Below are positions 1-16,885 of a stretch of DNA of 16,885 nucleotides, piece after piece. The DNA is taken from IMG/VR virus record IMGVR_UViG_3300037511_000197, one strand, 5' to 3'. Both the position numbers and the translations under genes were made by a program. The notes under the pieces are model-generated. The model saw only the letters and a list, made by a program, of their open reading frames with translations, was not told the origin of the DNA and ran no database searches. Each line of letters begins with the position of its first letter. The first letter of the stretch is position 1. The stretch is from a virus.

Positions 1-127
1 TCGTCGCCCGGCCCGTCCGCCGGGATGTGGCGCCTCACCGCGCGGCGCCCGTCTCTCGAGCCGGGCCCTCGCCGAACGAGAGGCCCTGTACGTGTTCCGG
101 TACGGGCTGCGACCCGTCCGCGGTGAG
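1..127. repeat. Terminal direct repeat, copy 1 (identical to 16759..16885); most likely circular-assembly overlap
   Basis: Base-by-base comparison shows 127/127 identity with the last 127 nt of the window. Confidence 0.95.
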
Positions 128-2676: not shown

Positions 2677-3479
2677 TCGACATACACGCCCGCGGGTACG
2701 CCCTGCTCGAGCTCGAGTGCACACGATGCGGATGGACTGAGGAGCAAGACCCGGGCGGCCCTACGCTGAGCACCGTCATGGCGCACGCCATGCGCCACGT
2801 ACAGGAGGCGCACCGCCCGCCCGCTGACGTGGCCGTGGTGCGCCCGGACGACATCGAGCAGCGCACGTACCGGCGCGATGCTGAGCACAAGTGTCAGGAG
2901 TGGCAGCCCCGGCAACACCCAGGCTCCGCCACGTTGTACCGGTGCTCACTGGACCTTGGCCACGACGGGGCGCATCGGGCGTACGTAGATGGTGGACTCG
3001 TCGCGGGGTGGCCGCGGCGGCCCGACCCGTGGCGCGGGTACGGCGTGGGCGACACGGTGCGCTGGCACGGGATGCGCTGGATGATCGTCAAGCTCGAGTG
3101 CAAGACCAGCGTCGGCGACCAGGAAGAGACCACCGCAACGATCACGTTCGCCGACGAGCTGCGCGGCACGGCTGGTCTCCCGGACCAGCGTGTCGGGCTC
3201 GAGCGGCTCGAGCTCATCGAGCCGGCCGATTTTTCCCGGGCCGGCACCCCTGGGACACCCGCGCCCTGTTCTTTCTCTCCCCCCGGGCCGATCTCGAGCG
3301 ATTCTTCCGGGGCAGTCACGGAAGGTAGCGATCTCCGCTGTTCGTGCCCGCCGCCGGCCGATGACGTCTGGCCGGCACCGGGGTGCCCCGTGCACGGCGA
3401 GCCGGGCGCGCCCCGCCACACGCTGAACCACCCAGGCAGCGACCGATGGACAGGCGGGGATCGCAAGGACGAGCCCTGA
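2649..3479 (+). CDS. Hypothetical protein, 276 aa (alternative start ATG 2673 in an ATGA overlap)
   Basis: GGGGGAG (2635..2641) lies 7 nt before ATG 2649. The C-terminus carries CSCP-x9-PGCPVH, paralogous to the motif in gene 1779..2342. Confidence 0.7.
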   Translation: MHTSHGLDMIDIHARGYALLELECTRCGWTEEQDPGGPTLSTVMAHAMRHVQEAHRPPADVAVVRPDDIEQRTYRRDAEHKCQEWQPRQHPGSATLYRCSLDLGHDGAHRAYVDGGLVAGWPRRPDPWRGYGVGDTVRWHGMRWMIVKLECKTSVGDQEETTATITFADELRGTAGLPDQRVGLERLELIEPADFSRAGTPGTPAPCSFSPPGPISSDSSGAVTEGSDLRCSCPPPADDVWPAPGCPVHGEPGAPRHTLNHPGSDRWTGGDRKDEP

Positions 3480-3898
3480 TGGCCGAGCTCGAGCAGTTCA
3501 CCTCGCTGCGCGCGGCGCTGGTCGCGGCGCTCGAGGACGCGCCGTACCTCCCGCGGGACCGGGCGGCCGTGGCGCTGGCGCTGCGGTACGCCGACCTGCT
3601 CGACGACGCGCAAGATCGAGTGGAGCAGGCCGACGACGACGACGAGAGCCGGGCGTACGGCCGGTACGTCGCCGTGGTGGCGAAGATCGGCCCCCGGCTC
3701 GAGGCGGTCCTCGACCGGATGGGCATGACGCCCGGCGCGCGGCCGGCCGTACCCGGAGGGAGCCCGCATGGCAGCGCACCTGACCCCCGTGCCGTCGCCC
3801 TCGAGCAGCTGCAGCAATCCGCCGGAGCCCCTGCCCCTGGGATCGATCCGGCCGCGTTTGTGGACCCGGCCGTTGAGGAGGCTGACGCCGGAGACTAG
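3479..3898 (+). CDS. terS: Terminase small subunit, 139 aa
   Basis: It sits directly before terL with a TGATG start overlap. LRYADLLDDA...VAKIGPRLEAVLDRMGMTPGAR resembles actinophage TerS sequences. Confidence 0.65.
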   Translation: MAELEQFTSLRAALVAALEDAPYLPRDRAAVALALRYADLLDDAQDRVEQADDDDESRAYGRYVAVVAKIGPRLEAVLDRMGMTPGARPAVPGGSPHGSAPDPRAVALEQLQQSAGAPAPGIDPAAFVDPAVEEADAGD

Positions 3899-5342
3899 CT
3901 ACGGCTACGCCGTCATCGTGTTCGCTGCGCTCGTGCTGGGCGAGCCCCTCGACCCGTGGCAGCAGTGGCTCGTGATCCACCTCGGGGAGTTGCTCCCGGA
4001 CGGGCGGCCGCGGTTCCGTCAGGTGCTCGTGGTGGTCGCGCGGCAGCAGGGCAAGACGCACCTGTGCAAGGTGCTGTCGCTGTTCTGGCTGTTCGTCGAG
4101 AAGTGGCCGATGGTGTTCGGCACCTCGACGAACCTCGAGCAGGCCGCCGAGTCGTGGCAGGCCGCCGTGGACATGGCGAAGGAGTGCGAGCCGCTCGCCG
4201 GCCAGCTGCCGCGCAACGCGGTGCGGCTGGCCAACGGGCAGCAGACGTTCCGGACCGTCCACCGCACCGTGTACAAGATCGGCGCCGTCAACCGCAAGGG
4301 CGGCCGCGGCAAGAGCATCGACCGGATGATCGGCGACGAGCTCCGCGAGCACCAGTCGTGGGACGGCTACCTAGCCGCGTTCGGTGCCATGAACGCCCGC
4401 CCGTACGGGCAGGCCGTGTTCATCACCAACCAGGGCGACGCGAAGAGCGTCGTGCTGACCTCGCTGCGCGACAACGCCCTCGCGTACGCGACGACGGGGG
4501 AGGGGGACGAGCGTCTCGGGATCTTCGAGTGGTCGGCGCCGGAGGGTACGCACCCGATGGACGTGCACGGGTGGGCGGCCGCCATGCCGCAGCTGGGCCG
4601 GCGCACCGACTACGACTCGGTGCGCTCCCTGGCGCTGCGGGTGAGCAAACCCGGCGCCGACCCGGAAGAGCTCGCCGGGTTCCTCACCGAGTACCTGTGC
4701 ATGGCCGTGCCGTCGCTCAAGCCCGCGCTGTCCCCGGTCGCGTGGGCCCGCGGCCGGGTGCCCGCGCCGCTGGACCTCGAGCAGCGCGGCGCCCTGGCCG
4801 CGTGCCTCGACGTGTCCCCGGACCTGCAGCACGCGACCCTCGCCGTCGGCGCGTACGACGGGGCGAAGGTCCGCGGTGAGCTCGTGCACGCCTGGTCGGG
4901 TCCGGACGCCCTCACAGCGCTGCGCGCGGAGCTGCCGGAGTGGATCGCCCGCGTGCGCCCGGCGGTGCTCGGATGGTTCCCGGGCGGCCCGGCCGCGGCG
5001 CTGGACGCCGACCTGCGCGACCGGCGCAAGGAAGGCCGCCGCGGGTGGCCACCCGCCGGGGTGCGCATGGTGGAGATCACCACGGACGCCGCGGCGGTGT
5101 GCATGGGGTTCGCGTCGGCGCTGGACGCCAACCTTTTCCTACACTCGGGGCAGGAGTTGCTCGACGAGCAGGCCCGGCAGGCCACCACGCGCGCGCAGGG
5201 CCCGGACCGCTGGGTGTTCGCCCGCGGCGGTGACGCGCACTGCGACAGCGTGTACGCCGTGGCGGGCGTCGTCCACCTCGTACGCACCCAGCCGAAGCGG
5301 CGCCGGGTCAACCCGGGCGTACGTGTCGCACCCGGGGGCTAG
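3768..5342 (+). CDS. terL: Terminase large subunit, 524 aa
   Basis: Walker A-like VVVARQQGKT and Walker B-like IDRMIGDELREH. The N-terminal RPRLWTRPLRRLTPETSYGYAVIVFA is typical of TerL. GGAGGGA (3755..3761) lies 6 nt before the ATG. Confidence 0.9.
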   Translation: MAAHLTPVPSPSSSCSNPPEPLPLGSIRPRLWTRPLRRLTPETSYGYAVIVFAALVLGEPLDPWQQWLVIHLGELLPDGRPRFRQVLVVVARQQGKTHLCKVLSLFWLFVEKWPMVFGTSTNLEQAAESWQAAVDMAKECEPLAGQLPRNAVRLANGQQTFRTVHRTVYKIGAVNRKGGRGKSIDRMIGDELREHQSWDGYLAAFGAMNARPYGQAVFITNQGDAKSVVLTSLRDNALAYATTGEGDERLGIFEWSAPEGTHPMDVHGWAAAMPQLGRRTDYDSVRSLALRVSKPGADPEELAGFLTEYLCMAVPSLKPALSPVAWARGRVPAPLDLEQRGALAACLDVSPDLQHATLAVGAYDGAKVRGELVHAWSGPDALTALRAELPEWIARVRPAVLGWFPGGPAAALDADLRDRRKEGRRGWPPAGVRMVEITTDAAAVCMGFASALDANLFLHSGQELLDEQARQATTRAQGPDRWVFARGGDAHCDSVYAVAGVVHLVRTQPKRRRVNPGVRVAPGG

Positions 5343-5395
5343 GATGCCCGCCGCGCCAGGCTGAACGGACGGTAACGACAACCGTTTCCAGGACG

Positions 5396-5401
5396 TACAC
5401 T
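5396..5401 (+). promoter_or_regulatory. -10-like hexamer TACACT placed 7 nt upstream of ATG 5409 (possible leaderless start of the head gene)
   Basis: It matches TANNNT and has the same 7-nt hexamer-to-ATG geometry as the two promoters at 500..546. No SD lies upstream of 5409. I found no convincing -35. Confidence 0.3.
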
Positions 5402-5408
5402 GCCGATC

Positions 5409-8402
5409 ATGGGATGGATCGCGGCAGCGTGGGACACGGTTACGCGCGCTCTCTCCCCGTCTCCGCCGTTCGTGCTCGAGCTCGAGCCGGCCGCCACGTT
5501 CGCCTCGACGGAGAGCGCACCGCGGCCGATCGATCAGGTGCTCGCCGCCATGTCCGGGCTGAGCAACACCCGCGTGGGCCGCACGGAGGCGCTGCAGGTC
5601 GCCGCCGTGCAGCGCGGCCGCAACGAGCTGTGCGCGATCGGCACGCTCCCGCTGCGGCTGTTCAACGGGCTGAACATCGTGCAGCACCCGCTCTTCCGGC
5701 AGACCGACCCGGACGTCCCCAACATCATCACGATGGCCCAGACGATCGAAGACCTGATCTTCGAGGGCGCCGCGTGGTGGCGGGTGATCTCCCGCGACTT
5801 CGACCTGTACCCCGTCGCCGCCCGGTACGTGCCGTACGGCAAGGTCCAGCTACGGCCGCCGGCCGACCAGGTGCGCGCCCCCAACCCGACCGGTCTGCCC
5901 GCCCCTGGCAAGTACGTGTGGATCGACGGCGAGCAGGTCCCTATCGCGGACATGATCCGTTTCGACTCCCCGAACCCGGGGCTGCTCACCGCGTGCGCTC
6001 GCAGCGTGCGGCGCGCGTTGCTGCTCGACCAGCTGGCCGCCATGTACGCCGAGAGCCCCCGCCCGCTGGACTACTTCACCACCCGCAGCGGCACGCTCGA
6101 CGTCGAGCCGATGAGCGAGACCGACCAGGACGTCTTCCTCGCCGAGTGGGAAGCCGCACGCCGGATGCGCGCGACCGGTTGGATACCGGAGAACGTCGAG
6201 CGGGTGGACGTGTCCACGCCCAGCCCCGCCGACTTGCAGCTCGTACAGCTGCAGCAGCAGGTGTCTCTCGAGATCGCGAACGGGCTGGGCGTCGACCCTG
6301 AAGACCTGGGCGTGTCGACCACGTCGCGCACGTACTTCAACGCCCAGGACCGCCGTCAGGAGAAGGTCAACCGGACGTACGCCCCGTACATGCGCGCGAT
6401 CACTGACCGGCTCACCATGGGCGACGTCACCCGCCGCGGCTACGAGGTGCGCTTCGATCTCAGCGACTACCTGCGCGCCGACCCGGCGACGCAAATTCTC
6501 TACTGGGAAGGGCTGCAGCGCATGCGCGTCGCCTCGACGGAATGGATCGCCGACCAGGCTGGCATCTCGCAGGACCGGATGCCGGCCCCGGACGCCGCGC
6601 CGCCCGCGCCGGCCGCGCTGCCCGCCGGGCAGAGCTCGCAGCGCATCTCCGTGCAGCTGGACGCCGGACCCCGGACGTTCACCGTGGACGCACCCACGCA
6701 GCGGTTCTCCGCCGACGTCGAGCGGCGCACCATTTCCGGCCTGGCGCTGCCCTACGGCAAGGTGGCCCGCAAGTACGGCATCTCGTACCGGTTCCTGCCC
6801 GGCTCCCTCGAGTGGTCGGACGTGTCGCGCGTCAAGCACCTCAAGGACCACATCACCCCGATCGGGGTGGCGAAGTCCATCACGTCGACCGCGGAGGGGC
6901 TCGAGGTCACCCTCGGCGTGAGCGACGGTATCGAGGGCAGCCGCGAGAAGGCCGAACGTGATCAGCTGCTCTTCGACGCCGCGGAGGGGCTGTACGACGG
7001 GCTGTCGGTGGGCGTGGACTTCCAGGTCACCGACGACCCGGACACCACGGACGCCGTCTACAACGAGACCGACGGCGTGTACGACGTGCGCCGTGCGTCG
7101 CTGCAGGAAGTCAGCACCACCCCGCTGCCCGCATTCGCAGACGCCCGCGTGACCAAGGTGGCCGCGAGCCGAGATGGAGGAAACATGCCCTGCCCCAATT
7201 GCGGTCACCAGCACGCCCCGGGGGTGTCGTGCCACACCGCGGCCCAGCGGGCCCAGGAGGCGGCTGCCCAGTTCCACCAGCCGACCACCCCGGCGCCCGG
7301 CACCCCGTCGCCCGCGCCGACGCCCACGCCCGCCCCGGCGCCGTCCGGTCCGGAGCAGGTCACCCCGCAGGCCCGGTTCGCCGCGACAGAGGTCCGCGAG
7401 CCCGCGCCGTACGTCTTCGACCGCACCGGGCACCTGCGCGCCGGTACCCACGACTTCTCCACTGACCTGTTCAACGGGTGGAGCAAGGGCGACCTCGCGG
7501 CCAAGGACCGCGCGTCGACGTTCGTGCGGGAGGCATTCGCGGTCACCCCCGCCAACGTGGCCAGCCTCAACCCGACGATCAACCGGCCCGACATGTACGT
7601 CGACCAGCTGGACTACACGTCGCCGATCTGGGAGGCCATCAACAAGGGCACCCTGACCAACCAGACCCCGTTCACGGTGCCGAAGTTCTCGGCATCGTCC
7701 GGCCTGGTCGCCGACCACGTCACCGGTACCGAGCCGACCCCCGGCGCGTTCTCCGCGACCGTGCAGACCATCACCCCGACCGGCGTGTCCGGCAAGGTGG
7801 AGGTGACCCGCGAGGCGTGGGACCAGGGCGGCAACCCGCAGATGTCCGGGCTCATCTGGCGGCAGATGGTCCGCGGCTACCGCGAAGCCCTCGAGGCGTA
7901 CGCCGTCGCCCAGCTGGTCGCCGTCGCCGCATCGATGACGGACATCGTCATCACCACCGCGGCCGCCGACTCGGCGCTCGATCAGGCGCTCGCCGCGGCG
8001 CTCGTCCCGCTGCGCTACATCCGCGGCGGTGACCGGTTCACTGACGTGTTCACGCAGGTCGACCTCTACTCGGCGCTCGCGAAGGCCAAGGACACCGCCG
8101 GGCGGCCGCTGTACCCGGAGATCAACCCGCAGAACGCGGCCGGTACGCAGAACGACGGGTCCGGCCTGATCCAGGCCCGCGGCAAGAACTTCTGGCCGGC
8201 ATGGGCCACCGCGGCGACCAGCATCAACGCCTCGAGCTCGTACATGTTCAACCGCGACGTCGTGTGCGGCTGGGCGTCGGCGCCGCAGCGCATCGACATC
8301 GAGTGGCGCGTGGCGTGGGTCGACATCGGCATCTGGGGCTACAAGGCATTCGCGGTCACGGACTACACCGGCACCCGCGAGCTCGTCTACGACCCGGTGT
8401 GA
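5409..8402 (+). CDS. Portal / HK97-family prohead protease / major capsid protein fusion ORF, 997 aa
   Basis: Residues 1 to about 390 are portal-like (RTEALQVAAVQRGRNELCAIGTLPLRLF, DLIFEGAAWWRV). Residues about 425-585 are protease-like (RTISGLALPYGKVAR, VKHLKDH, DGLSVGVDF, EVSTTPLPAFADARV). Residues 593-650 hold CPNCGH..C.H plus a Pro/Thr/Ala linker. Residues about 650-997 look like an HK97-fold MCP. The reading frame is uninterrupted. Confidence 0.8.
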   Translation: MGWIAAAWDTVTRALSPSPPFVLELEPAATFASTESAPRPIDQVLAAMSGLSNTRVGRTEALQVAAVQRGRNELCAIGTLPLRLFNGLNIVQHPLFRQTDPDVPNIITMAQTIEDLIFEGAAWWRVISRDFDLYPVAARYVPYGKVQLRPPADQVRAPNPTGLPAPGKYVWIDGEQVPIADMIRFDSPNPGLLTACARSVRRALLLDQLAAMYAESPRPLDYFTTRSGTLDVEPMSETDQDVFLAEWEAARRMRATGWIPENVERVDVSTPSPADLQLVQLQQQVSLEIANGLGVDPEDLGVSTTSRTYFNAQDRRQEKVNRTYAPYMRAITDRLTMGDVTRRGYEVRFDLSDYLRADPATQILYWEGLQRMRVASTEWIADQAGISQDRMPAPDAAPPAPAALPAGQSSQRISVQLDAGPRTFTVDAPTQRFSADVERRTISGLALPYGKVARKYGISYRFLPGSLEWSDVSRVKHLKDHITPIGVAKSITSTAEGLEVTLGVSDGIEGSREKAERDQLLFDAAEGLYDGLSVGVDFQVTDDPDTTDAVYNETDGVYDVRRASLQEVSTTPLPAFADARVTKVAASRDGGNMPCPNCGHQHAPGVSCHTAAQRAQEAAAQFHQPTTPAPGTPSPAPTPTPAPAPSGPEQVTPQARFAATEVREPAPYVFDRTGHLRAGTHDFSTDLFNGWSKGDLAAKDRASTFVREAFAVTPANVASLNPTINRPDMYVDQLDYTSPIWEAINKGTLTNQTPFTVPKFSASSGLVADHVTGTEPTPGAFSATVQTITPTGVSGKVEVTREAWDQGGNPQMSGLIWRQMVRGYREALEAYAVAQLVAVAASMTDIVITTAAADSALDQALAAALVPLRYIRGGDRFTDVFTQVDLYSALAKAKDTAGRPLYPEINPQNAAGTQNDGSGLIQARGKNFWPAWATAATSINASSSYMFNRDVVCGWASAPQRIDIEWRVAWVDIGIWGYKAFAVTDYTGTRELVYDPV

Positions 8403-8408
8403 TCCCAA

Positions 8409-8461
8409 CCTGCGGGACCGGCGGGGGGCTGATGATGTTGGACCCCCGCCGGACCTGCAGG
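8409..8461 (+). terminator. Hairpin directly after the capsid ORF (terminator or attenuator candidate)
   Basis: CCGGCGGGGG (8418..8427) pairs with CCCCCGCCGG (8443..8452). An imperfect outer stem CCTGCGGGA/ACCTGCAGG extends it. TATT follows. Confidence 0.5.
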
Positions 8462-8510
8462 TATTCCCGACCGTCAATACGTCCCGCCAAGATCAGATCG
8501 AGGTGTGTCA

Positions 8511-8927
8511 ATGGCTACCAAGGAAGAGCTCGAGGCTCAAGTCTCGAGGCTGCAGACCGACAACGAACGGCTGCGCGGGCAGCTCGCCGCCGCCGGCAAC
8601 CGCCCGGCCGCCAACGTCCCGGCCGCCCTGCCGTTCCTCACTGAGGGGCAGCGGCAGGAGCTGCTCACGTTCGGCCAGACCACCCGCGCCGGGGGCGGCG
8701 CCGCCCTGTCGCTGAGCGAGGCCCGGGAGCTGTTCCCGGACGTCGACCTCTCCGACGCCACCGACGCCGCCCTCGCGGCCGACGAGCGGTTGCGTACCGA
8801 GGTGCTCGAGCGCGCGAGCATCCGCGGCGTCACCCACGTGTGGCCATCCATCGAACCGGGCGTGCTCGACCCGGCCGCCGTCGGCCTGCCGGGCATCTCC
8901 GGCCCCGGCCCGGACGCCCAGGCCTGA
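8511..8927 (+). CDS. Hypothetical protein, 138 aa, with an N-terminal coiled-coil-like segment (head-associated by position)
   Basis: GAGG (8500..8503) lies 7 nt before ATG 8511 (the ORF track starts at GTG 8505). EELEAQVSRLQTDNERLRGQL is heptad-like. No family recognised. Confidence 0.7.
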   Translation: MATKEELEAQVSRLQTDNERLRGQLAAAGNRPAANVPAALPFLTEGQRQELLTFGQTTRAGGGAALSLSEARELFPDVDLSDATDAALAADERLRTEVLERASIRGVTHVWPSIEPGVLDPAAVGLPGISGPGPDAQA

Positions 8928-10346: not shown

Positions 10347-10694
10347 GTGACCGAGGACATCAAGGCGAAGCTGCTCGGACCGCGCATCGTGGGCGAAGGC
10401 GACGAACGCCCGCACATCGACATCGAGGGCATCGGCCGGCTGTACCTGCGGCCGCTGAACCGGGCGGCCGCGCTGCGGCTGCGCACCGTCGACGACCTGG
10501 CCGAGAAGGACAACCTCCTGATCCACCTCGGCGTGGCCGAACCGGCGCTGTCCCTCGATGAGGTGCGGGCGTGGGCGGAAGTCGCCACCGCGGGGGAGTT
10601 GTCCGCGGTGAGCGAGGCTATCGCCACCATTTCCGGGATGACGAAGGGCAGCGCCAAGGAGGCCACCAAAAGCGCTCCTCGACGACGGCGATGA
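10347..10694 (+). CDS. Tail assembly chaperone (G-like), 115 aa
   Basis: AGGGGGAA RBS, GTG 10347, and a position between the major tail protein and the tape measure. The downstream frame continues open to the next gene. Confidence 0.7.
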   Translation: MTEDIKAKLLGPRIVGEGDERPHIDIEGIGRLYLRPLNRAAALRLRTVDDLAEKDNLLIHLGVAEPALSLDEVRAWAEVATAGELSAVSEAIATISGMTKGSAKEATKSAPRRRR

Positions 10695-10848
10695 TCTCGG
10701 CTTCGAGTGCTTCCTCGCCGAGAAACTCGGCATGATGATCTCGGAATTGCGCGAGCGAATGCAGGAATCCGAATTCGTGGTGTGGTCGCGCTATTACGCG
10801 TTGAAGACCCAACGCGAAGAGCTCGAGCGGTTGAAGGCGGGAGTGTGA
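10347..10848 (+). CDS. Tail assembly chaperone, frameshifted long form (GT-like); the shift to the +1 frame must occur within 10642..10692
   Basis: The +1 frame is open from 10642 (after TGA 10639) to TGA 10846..10848, 1 nt before the next start codon. The -1 frame stops after about 20 codons. The candidate slip site is ACC AAA AGC (A-run 10668..10671), followed by three rare CGA codons. Confidence 0.55.
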
Positions 10849-10849
10849 C

Positions 10850-11272
10850 GTGCCGGAACAGGTGAGCATCACCGGGCTGCGGGAATTCCAGCGGCAGCTA
10901 CGCGACATGGACACCGCGCTTCCCAAGCGAATCCGGCTGGTGCTCAACGACGCCGCCCAGGTGGTCATCGAGTACGCCCGGCCGCGCATCCCGCGCCGTA
11001 CGGGCCGCGCCGCCGGCAGCATTAAGGCCCGCTCCACGCAGCGCACCGCGGGCGTCGCGATCGGCGGCCGCCGCGCCGGCTACTACCCGTGGCTCGACTT
11101 CGGCGGCCAGGGCAAGCGCAAGGGCCGCCCGCCGGCCCGCCCGTTCATCAAGGAAGGCCGCTACCTGTACCCGGCGCTGCGGGTCAAGCGCGACGAGCTG
11201 ACCGAGATCATGTCGACGGGGCTGGCGGGGCTGGCCAAGGAAGCGGGATTGGAGGTGACCGGGGATGGCTAA
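10850..11272 (+). CDS. HK97 gp10-like head-tail joining or tail completion protein, 140 aa
   Basis: ITGLREFQRQLRDMD...IPRRTGRAAGSIKA...YYPWLDFGG...ARPFIKEGRY resembles the HK97 gp10 family pattern. GTG start. Confidence 0.6.
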   Translation: MPEQVSITGLREFQRQLRDMDTALPKRIRLVLNDAAQVVIEYARPRIPRRTGRAAGSIKARSTQRTAGVAIGGRRAGYYPWLDFGGQGKRKGRPPARPFIKEGRYLYPALRVKRDELTEIMSTGLAGLAKEAGLEVTGDG

Positions 11273-12251
11273 CCAGGTGACCCTGACGTTCGCGGGGGAG
11301 AGCACCAACCTCGAACAGACTTTCGATCGGGTGGGCGAATCGTCGAAGCGGGTCGGCGAGCACGCCAAGGAAGCCGGAGACGGGTTCAGCAAGGCTGGTG
11401 AGGCGGCCGACGAGGTCGACACTAAGGCCATGGGGTTCCGCGACACCCTGACCGGTGTGCAGGACTCCATGTCCGGACTGGCCATGCTCAGCAAGGGGCC
11501 CAGCTTCGAGGGTTTCCTCACCCTGGGTGCAGGTATCGGCGACCTGGGCAGCGGCTTTTACAACTTCCTCATCCCGGCGCTGGAAAAGACGAAACTCGCC
11601 ACGGTCGCCTCGACGGTGGCGAGCAAGGCCGCCGCCATCGGGACGAAGGCGTGGGCGGCCGCGCAGTGGCTGATGAGCGGTGCGCTGTGGGCGTCGCCGA
11701 TCACGTGGATCGTGGTGGCCATCATCGCGCTGATCGCCGTCATCGTGCTGATCGCGACCAAGACGGACTGGTTCCAACGGGCGTGGCGCGCCTCCTGGCG
11801 GTGGATCAAGGACGCAGCGTCGGACGTGTGGGAGTGGTTGAAGAAGGTGCCGGGGTGGATCGGCCACGCGTTCTCCAAGGTCGCCGACTTCCTCACCGCG
11901 CCGTTCCGGGCCGCGTTCAACTTCATCGCCCGCGCGTGGAACAACACCGTCGGCGGGCTGTCCTGGTCGGTGCCCAGCTGGGTGCCGTTCATCGGCGGCA
12001 ACTCGATCTCCGTGCCGCACCTGCGCACGTTCGACGTCGGCGGGTACGTCCCCGGGCACCCCGGTACCCCGGTGCTCGCCATGCTGCAGGCAGGCGAGCG
12101 GGTGCAGCCCCGCACCTCGAGCGGCAGCGGGGGGGTGCTGCGGCTGGGCTCCGACGGCACCCGCATGGGCGATTGGATCTTGGACGTGATCGCCGACGCC
12201 ATGCGTGGCCGCGGTGGCGACCCGGCGCAACTCGGCATCGAGCTGGGCTGA
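11265..12251 (+). CDS. Tape measure protein, unusually short (328 aa)
   Basis: It sits after the chaperone genes. It has an Ala/Gly-rich helical N-terminus and an internal hydrophobic segment (ITWIVVAIIALIAVIVLIA). Confidence 0.7.
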   Translation: MANQVTLTFAGESTNLEQTFDRVGESSKRVGEHAKEAGDGFSKAGEAADEVDTKAMGFRDTLTGVQDSMSGLAMLSKGPSFEGFLTLGAGIGDLGSGFYNFLIPALEKTKLATVASTVASKAAAIGTKAWAAAQWLMSGALWASPITWIVVAIIALIAVIVLIATKTDWFQRAWRASWRWIKDAASDVWEWLKKVPGWIGHAFSKVADFLTAPFRAAFNFIARAWNNTVGGLSWSVPSWVPFIGGNSISVPHLRTFDVGGYVPGHPGTPVLAMLQAGERVQPRTSSGSGGVLRLGSDGTRMGDWILDVIADAMRGRGGDPAQLGIELG

Positions 12252-16448: not shown

Positions 16449-16796
16449 TCACCGCAGGCACGGCGGGGGACCGCCCTGGGGGCACGGGACCGGGATGGTG
16501 CTGGGCGTGACCATCGGCCCGGACGCCCGGCCGGCGGCCGCGCCGACCACGATCACGAGCAGGACCACCAGCGCCGCCATCACGAGCAGAGCGCCGATCG
16601 CGACGAGCCCTGCCGAGACCCGGTACCGCTGCGGCTGGCGCACCTCATACGTGCAGCCGCACGCGCGTCCGGTGGCCACCCACCCGGCCATGCATCCCGT
16701 GTCGGTGTGCGTGCCCTCCCACGGCCAGTGGCCGCACCGCGGGCACCGCACCCGCTGCTCGTCGCCCGGCCCGTCCGCCGGGATGTGGCGCCTCAC
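16449..16796 (-). CDS. Membrane-anchored Cys-rich (zinc-ribbon-like) protein, 115 aa
   Basis: The GTG start overlaps the stop of the 154-aa gene across the circular junction. N-terminal CPRCGHW...GC...CGC, then the TM helix VSAGLVAIGALLVMAALVVLLVIVVGAAAG. Minus-strand third-position GC is about 95% versus about 75% for the antisense plus frame. Confidence 0.75.
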   Translation of the reverse strand: MRRHIPADGPGDEQRVRCPRCGHWPWEGTHTDTGCMAGWVATGRACGCTYEVRQPQRYRVSAGLVAIGALLVMAALVVLLVIVVGAAAGRASGPMVTPSTIPVPCPQGGPPPCLR

Positions 16797-16885
16797 CGCG
16801 CGGCGCCCGTCTCTCGAGCCGGGCCCTCGCCGAACGAGAGGCCCTGTACGTGTTCCGGTACGGGCTGCGACCCGTCCGCGGTGAG
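16759..16885. repeat. Terminal direct repeat, copy 2 (identical to 1..127)
   Basis: Same comparison as copy 1. It contains the 5' end of the minus-strand gene 16449..16796 and the 3' end of the gene annotated at 35..499. Confidence 0.95.

What the first reader, a model, noticed from the sequence alone, without database searches (positions are those of the whole stretch)
5409..8402. Portal, prohead protease and major capsid protein encoded in one uninterrupted 997-codon ORF
Seen in sequence:
- A single frame runs from a portal-like N-terminus, through an HK97-type protease core, a CPNCGHQHAPGVSCH mini zinc-ribbon (7191..7235) and a Pro/Thr/Ala linker, into an HK97-fold capsid domain.
- The strongest SD-like element inside the ORF, GGAGG at 7176..7180, lies 4 nt before an in-frame ATG at 7185. 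This sits exactly at the protease/capsid boundary.
- A weaker AGGA+ATG (6571/6579) sits at the portal/protease boundary.

Protease-MCP fusions are known in small actinophages. Putting the portal in the same polypeptide is stoichiometrically paradoxical: 12 portal copies per head against hundreds of capsid subunits.

Nested in-frame initiation, like lambda C/Nu3, could give three products at different ratios. Alternatively the protease could cut the polyprotein apart. Either way it would be an unusual head-assembly solution for a minimal genome.
Basis: partly seen in the sequence, partly recalled or inferred. Interest (0 to 1): 0.85.

Follow-up and report, generated by a model that had tools for sequence, protein, structure and literature searches.

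The report
Portal-protease-capsid fusion gene, nested capsid start
A tiny soil phage encodes its portal, head protease and major capsid protein in one 997-codon gene, and a strongly conserved internal ribosome-binding site and start codon indicate that the capsid protein is also made on its own, which would remove the apparent copy-number paradox.

Summary
Window 5409..8402 is one uninterrupted 997-codon ORF. It carries a portal domain, an S78 prohead protease, a CCHC zinc knuckle, a Pro/Thr/Ala linker and an HK97-fold capsid domain. All three Pfam families score above their curated cut-offs.

It is not an assembly error. All 80 relatives fetched from IMG/VR (38-59% identity) keep the whole match in one ORF. 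Prophages of Micromonospora, Actinoplanes and Streptomyces carry it too.

One nested start is very well supported by comparison. The window's GGAGG+ATG (7176/7185) aligns with an in-frame ATG or GTG behind a strong Shine-Dalgarno in all 81 sequences. Only 2.5% of other in-frame start codons have one as strong.

The full-length start has no Shine-Dalgarno. A conserved TANNNT hexamer abuts it, which suggests a leaderless mRNA.

The same nested start sits inside the "protease-capsid fusion" genes of the three cultured Arthrobacter and Microbacterium phages I checked, where the portal is a separate gene.

Fused and split portal arrangements are interleaved among relatives, so they look interchangeable.

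Verdict: real, widespread, not found in the literature I could search, and a new variant of known fusion and nested-gene themes. No protein product has been observed.

The parts
5396..5401 (+). TACACT, a -10-like hexamer (TANNNT) 7 nt upstream of the full-length start codon. Inferred promoter giving a leaderless or near-leaderless mRNA.
   Evidence: the context gTACACTnCCGaTC-ATG recurs in relatives, and 94% of 71 starts have aSD duplex dG above -5; a TANNNT ends 6-9 nt before the start in 57/70 relatives, against 0.3% of random positions. The transcription start itself is not shown.
5409..8402 (+). Full-length ORF of 997 codons plus stop: portal, protease, zinc knuckle, linker and capsid protein.
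   Evidence: One search finds the identical protein on another contig. One search finds one ORF in 80 of 80 relatives.
5409..6593 (+). Portal domain (aa 1-395), HK97-family portal fold.
   Evidence: Pfam PF04860, 55.7 bits against a cut-off of 39.1. PDB 3kdr by sequence, E 1.2e-11. Foldseek: 3kdr at TM 0.73 and the HK97 portal 8fql at 0.69.
6594..6698 (+). Disordered Pro/Ala-rich linker 1 (aa 396-430) between portal and protease. It contains the non-conserved ATG at 6579's downstream flank.
   Evidence: pLDDT below 50 over aa 396-430. The region varies in length and sequence in alignment A1.
6699..7151 (+). Prohead serine protease domain (aa 431-581), Peptidase_S78.
   Evidence: Pfam PF04586, 23.3 bits against a cut-off of 21. 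PHROG 80. His481, Ser533 (in the GLSVG motif) and Glu567 are invariant in 45 homologues.
7176..7180 (+). GGAGG Shine-Dalgarno for the nested start. It is encoded by GAT-GGA-GGA and so uses the rarest Gly codon.
   Evidence: The aSD duplex dG of -12.1 is the second strongest of 21 gene starts in the window. GGA makes up 7.5% of Gly codons. GGAGG or AGGAG lies within 20 nt of the start in 64 of 81 relatives.
7185..8402 (+). Nested in-frame ORF of 405 aa, from Met593 to the stop: zinc knuckle, linker and capsid protein. Inferred to be the bulk capsid precursor.
   Evidence: All 81 sequences have an in-frame ATG (66) or GTG (15) here. The mean aSD duplex dG of the 74 start codons near the boundary is -10.2, and 85% reach -9 or lower. 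For 4934 other in-frame start codons the mean is -3.1 and 2.5% reach -9. SD-to-start spacing is 4-8 nt in 79 of 81.
7191..7235 (+). CPNCGHQHAPGVSCH, a CCHC-type zinc knuckle at the N-terminus of the nested product.
   Evidence: Cys595, Cys598, His602 and Cys608 are conserved in at least 90% of 45 homologues. Some relatives lack the knuckle (L017, L024, L039, L046, L065) but keep the start codon. Metal binding was not tested.
7263..7397 (+). Disordered Pro/Thr/Ala linker 2 (aa 619-663). In relatives it is longer and partly helical.
   Evidence: pLDDT below 50 over aa 619-663. The alignment shows it is variable.
7398..8399 (+). HK97-fold major capsid protein domain (aa 664-997).
   Evidence: Pfam PF25209, 43 bits against a cut-off of 27. 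PHROG 2263. Foldseek hits to phage Ziko, Bxb1 and HK97 capsid proteins.
6579..6581 (+). Judged to be a chance occurrence.
   Evidence: aSD duplex dG is -4.0, and Met occupies this alignment column in 1 of 81 sequences.

Best explanation
The window is the complete genome of a very small tailed phage of high-GC actinobacteria, about 16.76 kb. Its head genes are compressed into one reading frame that is read in two ways.

(1) The full-length product. Translation from ATG 5409 gives a 997-aa chain: portal, prohead protease, zinc knuckle, linker and capsid protein. This start has no Shine-Dalgarno. A -10-like hexamer lies directly in front of it, so the mRNA is probably leaderless.

(2) The nested product. 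Ribosomes also start inside the same frame at ATG 7185, behind one of the strongest Shine-Dalgarno sites in the genome. This gives a 405-aa capsid precursor without portal or protease.

The bulk of the capsid subunits would come from the nested start. The full-length chain would supply the portal and the protease in equal, smaller numbers. The design is the nested protease/scaffold arrangement of lambda C/Nu3, extended at both ends.

I infer, but have not shown, two further steps. The protease would cut the disordered linkers during head maturation, freeing the portal and trimming the capsid precursor. The protease would lie inside the shell, because the portal's C-terminal end faces the capsid interior.

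Shown here: the ORF, the three domains, and the conservation of the fusion, the nested start and the -10-like element.

Inferred: use of the two starts, their ratio, the leaderless transcript and the cleavages.
For: The fusion is real:
- Single ORF and constant codon phase.
- 80 of 80 relatives at 38-59% identity keep one ORF.
- The top 120 of 872 database homologues are all 970-1095 aa.

The domains.

The nested start:
- ATG or GTG with a strong SD at the protease/capsid boundary in 81 of 81 sequences, against 2.5% of other in-frame starts.
- The site is kept where the encoded residues differ (GG, GE, EG, KE) and where the zinc knuckle is lost.
- It uses the rare GGA codon.
- SD-to-start spacing is 4-8 nt.
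- Its SD is the second strongest of 21 gene starts in the window.
- The same site is the strongest internal SD+start in each of four two-domain protease-capsid genes: Arthrobacter phages Arielagos and Decurro, Microbacterium phage BurtonThePup, and the split metagenomic relative L088.
- A gene caller independently chose this start on a truncated contig.

The full-length start: no SD in 94% of relatives, and a TANNNT 6-9 nt upstream in 81% against 0.3% of random positions.

Precedent: nested protease/scaffold genes in lambda, HSV-1 and HFTV1. Ribo-seq and LC-MS/MS show the internal start for HFTV1 (bioRxiv 10.64898/2026.09.13.751334).
Against: - No protein, ribosome-profiling or transcript data exist for this family, so both products and their ratio are inferred from sequence conservation only.
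- Leaderless translation can be efficient in actinobacteria (my own knowledge). The missing SD therefore does not prove that the full-length chain is scarce.
- If protease comes only from the full-length chain, either very few protease copies suffice or portal domains are made in excess. Neither is known.
- The S78 score is only just above its cut-off in the window protein (23.3 against 21).
- Cleavage sites were not identified.
Confidence: 0.75

Rival explanations
1. Pure polyprotein. Only the 997-aa chain is translated. The embedded protease cuts it into equimolar portal, protease and capsid protein, and the surplus portal and protease are wasted or degraded.
For: - A catalytically plausible S78 domain lies between two disordered, cleavable linkers.
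- Self-processing protease fusions are known, for example P2 gpO as described in the paper read.
- Fused and split portal arrangements interchange easily, so the fusion must somehow be undone or tolerated.
Against: - It does not explain why an SD plus ATG/GTG is kept at the protease/capsid boundary in 81 of 81 sequences, using rare codons, even where the local protein sequence changes.
- It does not explain why the same site exists in two-domain genes of cultured phages.
- It would require roughly 20-fold or greater overproduction of portal.
Confidence: 0.12
2. Artefact. A sequencing or assembly error removed a stop codon or a frameshift, and the phage really has separate portal and protease-capsid genes, like cultured relatives.
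For: - Cultured relatives have the portal stop overlapping the next start by 4 nt (ATGA), so a single indel could fuse the two genes.
- Split relatives exist within the same capsid family.
Against: - The identical protein occurs on 3 contigs.
- 80 of 80 independent IMG/VR relatives have one ORF, as do RefSeq genomes of Micromonospora, Actinoplanes and Streptomyces.
- Codon phase is continuous through a 35-residue linker that has no counterpart in an ATGA overlap.
Confidence: 0.01
3. The internal Shine-Dalgarno is a translational pause or frameshift stimulator, as in dnaX or prfB. It would produce a portal-protease product that lacks the capsid domain. It would not be an initiation site.
For: - Internal SD-like sequences can stimulate frameshifting (established for dnaX and prfB; my own knowledge).
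- A portal-protease product without capsid protein would be a tidy solution.
Against: - The element conserved downstream of the SD is the ATG/GTG codon itself, at 4-8 nt, which is initiation spacing.
- The bases between SD and start vary freely and form no conserved slippery heptamer.
- I did not check the other two frames for a short conserved ORF.
Confidence: 0.04

Closest known systems
Protease-major capsid fusion genes of small actinophages (Arthrobacter cluster AN such as Decurro gp7 and Maggie gp7, Microbacterium cluster EE gp5, Rhodococcus RRH1). Described in Klyczek et al. 2017, PMC5513430.
   Same: - An S78 protease lies N-terminal to an HK97-fold capsid protein in one ORF.
- Siphovirus genomes of about 15-17 kb, with the portal function immediately upstream.
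- The protease domains are about 30-39% identical.
- The same nested SD+ATG sits at the protease/capsid boundary.
   Different: - In those phages the portal is a separate gene whose stop overlaps the fusion gene's start (ATGA). Here it is joined in frame through a linker of about 35 residues.
- The capsid domain of this family is not BLAST-detectable in any cultured phage.
- The papers I read or found treat the gene as a single fusion protein. I found no mention of a nested start.
Nested protease/scaffold genes: lambda C/Nu3, HSV-1 UL26/UL26.5, HFTV1 gp17/gp17.5.
   Same: An in-frame internal initiation site downstream of the protease domain gives an abundant C-terminal assembly protein. The full-length chain gives the scarce protease. 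One search shows this experimentally for HFTV1.
   Different: - Here the nested product is the capsid protein itself, with a short N-terminal extension, and is not a separate scaffold.
- The outer product also carries the portal.
- I saw no sequence relationship beyond the protease fold class.
Portal fusions with a C-terminal partner (portal-MuF fusion, Arthrobacter cluster AK gene 6; PMC5513430).
   Same: The portal tolerates an extra domain fused to its C-terminal side.
   Different: The partner there is a MuF-like head protein. It is neither protease nor capsid protein.
HK97 gp5 (delta-domain scaffold fused to the capsid protein) with the gp4 protease.
   Same: An HK97-type portal, an S78-type protease and an HK97-fold capsid protein whose N-terminal extension is presumably removed.
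   Different: HK97 has three separate genes. Its delta domain is about 100 helical residues. Here the extension is a zinc knuckle plus a low-complexity linker.

Membership tests
Phage portal protein (Pfam PF04860, HK97-family portals) | The sequence matches the family profile above the curated cut-off. | tested here: met
   55.7 bits against a cut-off of 39.1, aa 76-367, covering profile positions 13-303 of 321. PHROG 12 also matches.
Phage portal protein (Pfam PF04860, HK97-family portals) | Portal fold. | tested here: met
   The AF2 domain has pLDDT of about 85-95. Foldseek gives 3kdr at E 5e-16 and TM 0.73, and the HK97 portals 8fql and 8cez.
Phage portal protein (Pfam PF04860, HK97-family portals) | Forms a dodecamer at one capsid vertex. 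| not testable with these tools
   This needs cryo-EM or biochemistry.
Caudovirus prohead serine protease (Pfam PF04586, MEROPS S78) | The sequence matches the family profile above the curated cut-off. | tested here: met
   23.3 bits against a cut-off of 21, which is marginal, over aa 438-586. PHROG 80 matches at 1.4e-6. PF04586 is also precomputed on several homologues.
Caudovirus prohead serine protease (Pfam PF04586, MEROPS S78) | Catalytic His and Ser are conserved. | tested here: inconclusive
   His481 and Ser533 (motif GLSVG) are invariant in 45 homologues. I did not align them residue by residue to an experimentally defined active site.
HK97-fold major capsid protein (Pfam PF25209) | Profile match above the cut-off, and HK97 fold. 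| tested here: met
   43 bits against a cut-off of 27. Foldseek matches the capsid proteins of phages Ziko, Bxb1 and HK97 at TM about 0.5.
Nested (in-frame overlapping) head-assembly genes of the lambda C/Nu3 type | An in-frame internal start codon with its own ribosome-binding site, downstream of the protease domain. | tested here: met
   GGAGG lies 4 nt before ATG 7185. The site is conserved in 81 of 81 sequences, against a 2.5% background.
Nested (in-frame overlapping) head-assembly genes of the lambda C/Nu3 type | Two primary translation products are observed, with the shorter in excess. | not testable with these tools
   This needs Ribo-seq, N-terminal proteomics or immunoblots.
Nested (in-frame overlapping) head-assembly genes of the lambda C/Nu3 type | The nested product is a scaffolding protein. 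| tested here: not met
   The nested product is the capsid protein itself, with a 70-residue extension. The gene works like C/Nu3 but is not a member of that gene pair.
Leaderless actinobacterial mRNA | A -10 hexamer (TANNNT) placed so that transcription starts at or next to the start codon, with no Shine-Dalgarno. | tested here: met
   TACACT lies at 5396..5401, 7 nt before the ATG. The arrangement is conserved in 57 of 70 relatives against 0.3% of random positions. 94% of the starts lack an SD.
Leaderless actinobacterial mRNA | The mapped 5' end coincides with the start codon. | not testable with these tools
   This needs 5' RACE or dRNA-seq.
Protease-capsid fusion genes of small actinophages | Protease and capsid domains lie in one ORF, with the portal encoded by a separate upstream gene. 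| tested here: not met
   The first half is met. The portal is not separate in the window or in 80 of 80 fetched relatives. Split relatives do exist in the same capsid family.

The most novel reading that the evidence does not exclude
The full-length portal-protease-capsid chain may act as a covalent assembly nucleator. Twelve copies would form the portal ring. Each would hold one protease inside the nascent shell and one tethered capsid subunit, seeding polymerisation of the separately translated capsid protein. One gene would then fix three things at once: one portal per head, the protease dose, and the site where the shell starts. The frequent switching between fused and split arrangements would show that this tether can be replaced by translational coupling.
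Probability: 0.2. Interest if true: 0.8.

Novelty: new variant of a known kind. Interest (0 to 1): 0.62.

Why it matters
How a phage head receives exactly one portal and a small, controlled dose of protease is still argued for most tailed phages and herpesviruses. This family joins the portal, the protease and the capsid protein physically in one chain. It also appears to make the capsid protein separately from a nested start. That offers a natural construct for testing portal-nucleated assembly and protease delivery.

There is a practical consequence for annotation. Hundreds of database entries named 'phage portal protein' or 'prohead protease' (about 1000 aa), and the 'capsid and protease fusion' genes of cultured Arthrobacter and Microbacterium phages, probably hide a second, unannotated capsid gene.

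The family also shows that gene fusion and fission at the portal/protease junction happen readily. That warns against reading stoichiometry from ORF structure alone.

Tried and rejected
- Near-identical DNA search against cultured phages found nothing. No cultured phage covers 80% or more of the protein.
- The second nested start at 6579 is rejected. It is weak and Met is unique to the window. About 27% of relatives have some start with a moderate SD somewhere in linker 1. By my rough estimate that is about what chance gives, and the positions are not conserved.
- Met372 (ATG 6522) has an SD-like context in 17 relatives. The column is a hydrophobic Met/Leu position and the SD-likeness comes from Trp-Glu/Lys-Gly codons, so I judged it incidental.
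- Inverted repeats upstream of the full-length start are only weakly enriched: stems of 7 or more in 16% against 7%. The 75-nt leader region does not fold unusually (z -1.09). I make no claim about them.
- The E. coli-type promoter and terminator scan found nothing useful in 5200..8600, as expected for an actinobacterial phage.
- P0194 and P0197 looked like natural stand-alone capsid genes beginning at the nested start. P0194 turned out to come from a truncated 1.36-kb contig whose upstream 54 nt are open in frame. It is not evidence of a natural split. I did not check P0197's contig.
- Full-text searches for portal-protease or portal-capsid fusions, and for nested starts in protease-capsid genes, found no description. 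The library lacks most subscription journals, so this is not proof of absence.
Full report
**1. The observation**

The window has an ORF at 5409..8402 on the + strand, 997 codons long. It starts at the first start codon after the preceding in-frame stop and translates without interruption.

The window is about 70% G+C, so long ORFs alone mean little. The antisense strand has an 875-codon ORF over the same region. However, third-position G+C stays at 0.85-0.98 in this one frame from 5401 to 8370, including both low-complexity linkers.

- GGAGG at 7176..7180 and ATG at 7185.
- CPNCGHQHAPGVSCH at 7191..7235.
- AGGA at 6571 and ATG at 6579.

**2. The three folds**

Pfam finds three families, each above its curated cut-off:
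- Phage_portal, aa 76-367, 55.7 bits against 39.1.
- Peptidase_S78, aa 438-586, 23.3 bits against 21.
- Phage_capsid_4, aa 739-988, 43 bits against 27.

PHROGs agrees. Its family 2263, labelled 'major head protein', spans protease plus capsid. A profile of 45 homologues hits the solved HK97-family portal 3kdr.

An AlphaFold2 model built on that alignment has a mean pLDDT of 72.8. It has three confident domains, and the segments 396-430, 582-593 and 619-663 are disordered.

Foldseek against the PDB returns HK97-family portals (3kdr at TM 0.73; 8fql) and HK97-fold capsid proteins from Ziko, Bxb1 and HK97.

His481, Ser533 (in the GLSVG motif) and Glu567 of the protease domain are invariant in 45 homologues. 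Cys595, Cys598, His602 and Cys608 of the zinc knuckle are at least 90% conserved.

**3. The surroundings**

The two ends of the window repeat 127 bp exactly. This is the signature of a circularly closed assembly, so the window is a complete genome of about 16.76 kb.

The gene order is that of a minimal siphovirus:
- small terminase, 3479..3898
- large terminase, 3873..5342
- the fusion gene
- a 138-aa coiled-coil protein
- head-tail adaptor
- tail terminator
- major tail protein
- a gp10-like neck protein
- a short tape measure protein
- a 711-aa tail protein

**4. It is not an artefact, and it is not rare**

- The database search returned 872 homologues. The best 120 are all 970-1095 aa at 50-62% identity. 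Most lie on contigs of about 17 kb, but some lie on large contigs of Micromonospora, Actinoplanes and Streptomyces genomes.
- In M. carbonacea the gene sits in a prophage of about 21 kb with a serine integrase and an HTH repressor.
- IMG/VR holds 389 relatives. I fetched 80, at 38-59% identity. In every one the match to the 997-aa protein lies in a single uninterrupted ORF.

**5. The nested start**

I aligned the 81 ORFs. The residue aligned with window Met593 is Met or Val almost everywhere, including relatives that have lost the zinc knuckle.

At the DNA level:
- All 81 sequences have an in-frame ATG (66) or GTG (15) at the protease/capsid boundary.
- It is preceded by a strong Shine-Dalgarno, typically aCAGGAGGa. 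The mean predicted duplex energy with the 16S 3' end is -10.2 kcal/mol, and 85% of the sites reach -9 or lower.
- For the other 4934 in-frame ATG/GTG/TTG codons of the same ORFs, the mean is -3.1 and only 2.5% reach -9.
- The motif uses GGA, the rarest glycine codon in these genes at 7.5%.
- It persists where the encoded residues differ.
- It lies 4-8 nt from the start codon in 79 of 81 sequences.
- In the window it is the second strongest ribosome-binding site of 21 gene starts.

This is strong comparative evidence for an internal initiation site. In the window it would give a 405-aa zinc-knuckle/linker/capsid protein.

**6. The full-length start**

In 94% of 71 relatives the first start codon has essentially no Shine-Dalgarno (mean -1.4). 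Instead it is preceded by a conserved gTACACTnCCGaTC. A TANNNT hexamer ends 6-9 nt before the start codon in 57 of 70 relatives, against 0.3% of random positions in the same loci.

By established knowledge of actinobacterial promoters, this is the layout of a leaderless transcript. I infer that the full-length chain is translated from the 5' end of its own mRNA. The transcript start itself is not shown.

**7. Relation to cultured phages**

The closest cultured relatives, at about 30% identity, are phages of 15-17 kb infecting Arthrobacter (cluster AN), Microbacterium (cluster EE), Gordonia and Curtobacterium. In three that I examined (Arielagos, Decurro and BurtonThePup) the portal gene is separate, and its stop overlaps the start of a 'major capsid and protease fusion' gene by 4 nt. 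In Gordonia phage Emperor the two genes are not adjacent.

That two-domain fusion is described in the literature (PMC5513430). Only the protease part of the window protein is BLAST-detectable in cultured phages.

In Arielagos gp5, Decurro gp7 and BurtonThePup gp5, an ATG at the protease/capsid boundary carries the strongest internal Shine-Dalgarno in the gene. In Decurro and BurtonThePup it is the only internal start reaching the threshold I listed. Gordonia phage Emperor lacks it. So the nested capsid start seems to be older and more widespread than the portal fusion. I found no mention of it.

**8. Fused and split forms interchange**

I searched all 1.84 billion cluster representatives with the nested product. 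The search found 414 clusters. I classified the best 150 plus two reference proteins:
- 62 carry portal, protease and capsid domains.
- 64 carry protease and capsid domains, and begin 10-30 residues before the protease domain.
- 25 are capsid-only, mostly fragments.

One split relative, L088, has a 374-aa portal gene that overlaps the protease-capsid gene by 14 nt in another frame. It also keeps the nested start.

On a neighbour-joining tree of 109 complete representatives the two architectures need 27 changes. Nearest neighbours share architecture in 64 of 109 cases, against 54 ± 6 for shuffled labels. Reciprocal nearest pairs at 61-67% identity differ in architecture.

The tree is crude. Even so, fusion and fission at this junction have clearly happened many times. 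This argues that the two arrangements are functionally equivalent.

**9. Mechanism**

The best-supported reading is a two-product gene. A scarce, or at least separately controlled, full-length chain supplies portal and protease in a 1:1 ratio. An abundant nested product supplies the shell.

This is the logic of lambda C/Nu3, HSV-1 UL26/UL26.5 and HFTV1 gp17/gp17.5. For HFTV1 the internal start was shown by Ribo-seq and LC-MS/MS. Here the nested product is the capsid protein itself, and the outer product also carries the portal.

In known portal structures the C-terminal side faces the capsid interior (established knowledge; 8fql is among the hits). A C-terminal protease would therefore be delivered inside the shell. 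The disordered linkers are plausible cleavage substrates (inference).

By analogy with other HK97-fold capsids (my own knowledge), a 16.8-kb genome suggests a T=4 head. That needs roughly 235 capsid subunits for 12 portal subunits, a ratio the nested start could provide.

**10. Rivals**

- A pure polyprotein does not explain the conserved SD and start codon.
- An assembly artefact is excluded.
- A frameshift-stimulating role for the internal SD is unlikely. The conserved element downstream is the start codon, at initiation spacing, and no slippery site is conserved.

**11. Novelty and score**

No cultured phage in the 2025 collection has the triple fusion. Full-text searches found no description of a portal-protease or portal-capsid fusion, nor of the nested start in protease-capsid genes.

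Public annotations call these proteins 'phage portal protein' or 'prohead protease'.

The parts and the principles are known: protease-capsid fusion, portal C-terminal fusions, nested head genes, and leaderless mRNAs. I therefore rate it a new variant of a known kind.

It is interesting because it is a widespread, natural covalent link between the three central head-assembly proteins. It is also interesting because the comparative signal makes a clear, testable prediction.

Noticed in passing
window 5396-5408, and the matching positions in L002-L081: The full-length ORF start has no Shine-Dalgarno. It is preceded by a conserved gTACACTnCCGaTC. A TANNNT hexamer ends 6-9 nt before the start codon in 57 of 70 relatives, against 0.3% of random positions. 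This is probably a promoter for a leaderless mRNA between the terminase gene and the head gene.
   Followed up: yes
L082 3317-4945 (Arielagos gp5), L083 3704-5287 (Decurro gp7), L086 2465-4051 (BurtonThePup gp5): The 'major capsid and protease fusion protein' genes of cultured Arthrobacter cluster AN and Microbacterium cluster EE phages each contain an in-frame ATG with a good Shine-Dalgarno at the protease/capsid boundary (aa 176, 160 and 166). The capsid protein is probably also translated on its own, and this second product is not annotated.
   Followed up: partly
representatives P0121-P0269; L088 4890-7704: Within this capsid family, portal-fused and portal-separate architectures are interleaved. 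The neighbour-joining tree needs 27 parsimony changes, and fused/split pairs occur at 61-67% identity. Fusion and fission at the portal/protease junction look frequent.
   Followed up: partly
window 1-127 and 16759-16885: There is an exact 127-bp direct terminal repeat. This is the usual sign of a circularly closed assembly with k=127, so the window is a complete genome of about 16,758 bp.
   Followed up: partly
window 8511-8927 (+): The 138-aa protein directly after the fusion gene starts with a coiled-coil-like segment (MATKEELEAQVSRLQTDNERLRGQL) and matches no family. It could be a scaffold, decoration or connector protein.
   Followed up: no
window 6522-6524 (Met372): This is an in-frame ATG near the end of the portal domain with an SD-like context (dG -8.5). 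The column is Met in 47 and Leu in 22 of 81 sequences, and 17 relatives have a start with a strong SD there. It is probably a by-product of Trp-Glu/Lys-Gly codons, but a minor protease-capsid product cannot be excluded.
   Followed up: partly
L017, L024, L029, L051, L066, L073 (and protein P0106), at the position aligned with window 7185-7235: Several relatives, including Micromonospora prophages, have replaced the zinc knuckle with an acidic segment (for example GMPDEQESTET). They keep the Met and its Shine-Dalgarno, so the zinc knuckle is dispensable and the start is not.
   Followed up: partly
window 10347-10694 and 10732-10848 (+): A 115-aa ORF and a 38-aa ORF lie between the major tail protein and the neck/tape-measure genes. 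That is the usual place of tail assembly chaperones made by programmed frameshifting.
   Followed up: no
window 11265-12251 (+): The tape measure protein is very short (328 aa) and has the strongest Shine-Dalgarno in the genome (dG -15.9). Its best PHROG hit is an endolysin family, with tape-measure families next.
   Followed up: no
window 5850-8477 (-): An 875-codon antisense ORF overlaps the fusion gene. It is the kind of spurious long ORF that a 70% G+C genome produces, and the codon-position signal supports the + strand frame.
   Followed up: partly
L085 1636-3565: The relative in Micromonospora carbonacea is an integrated prophage with a serine integrase (Resolvase + Recombinase) and a divergent HTH_3 repressor. 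No integrase was detected in the window, which has only an HTH_17/excisionase-like gene at 547-780.
   Followed up: partly
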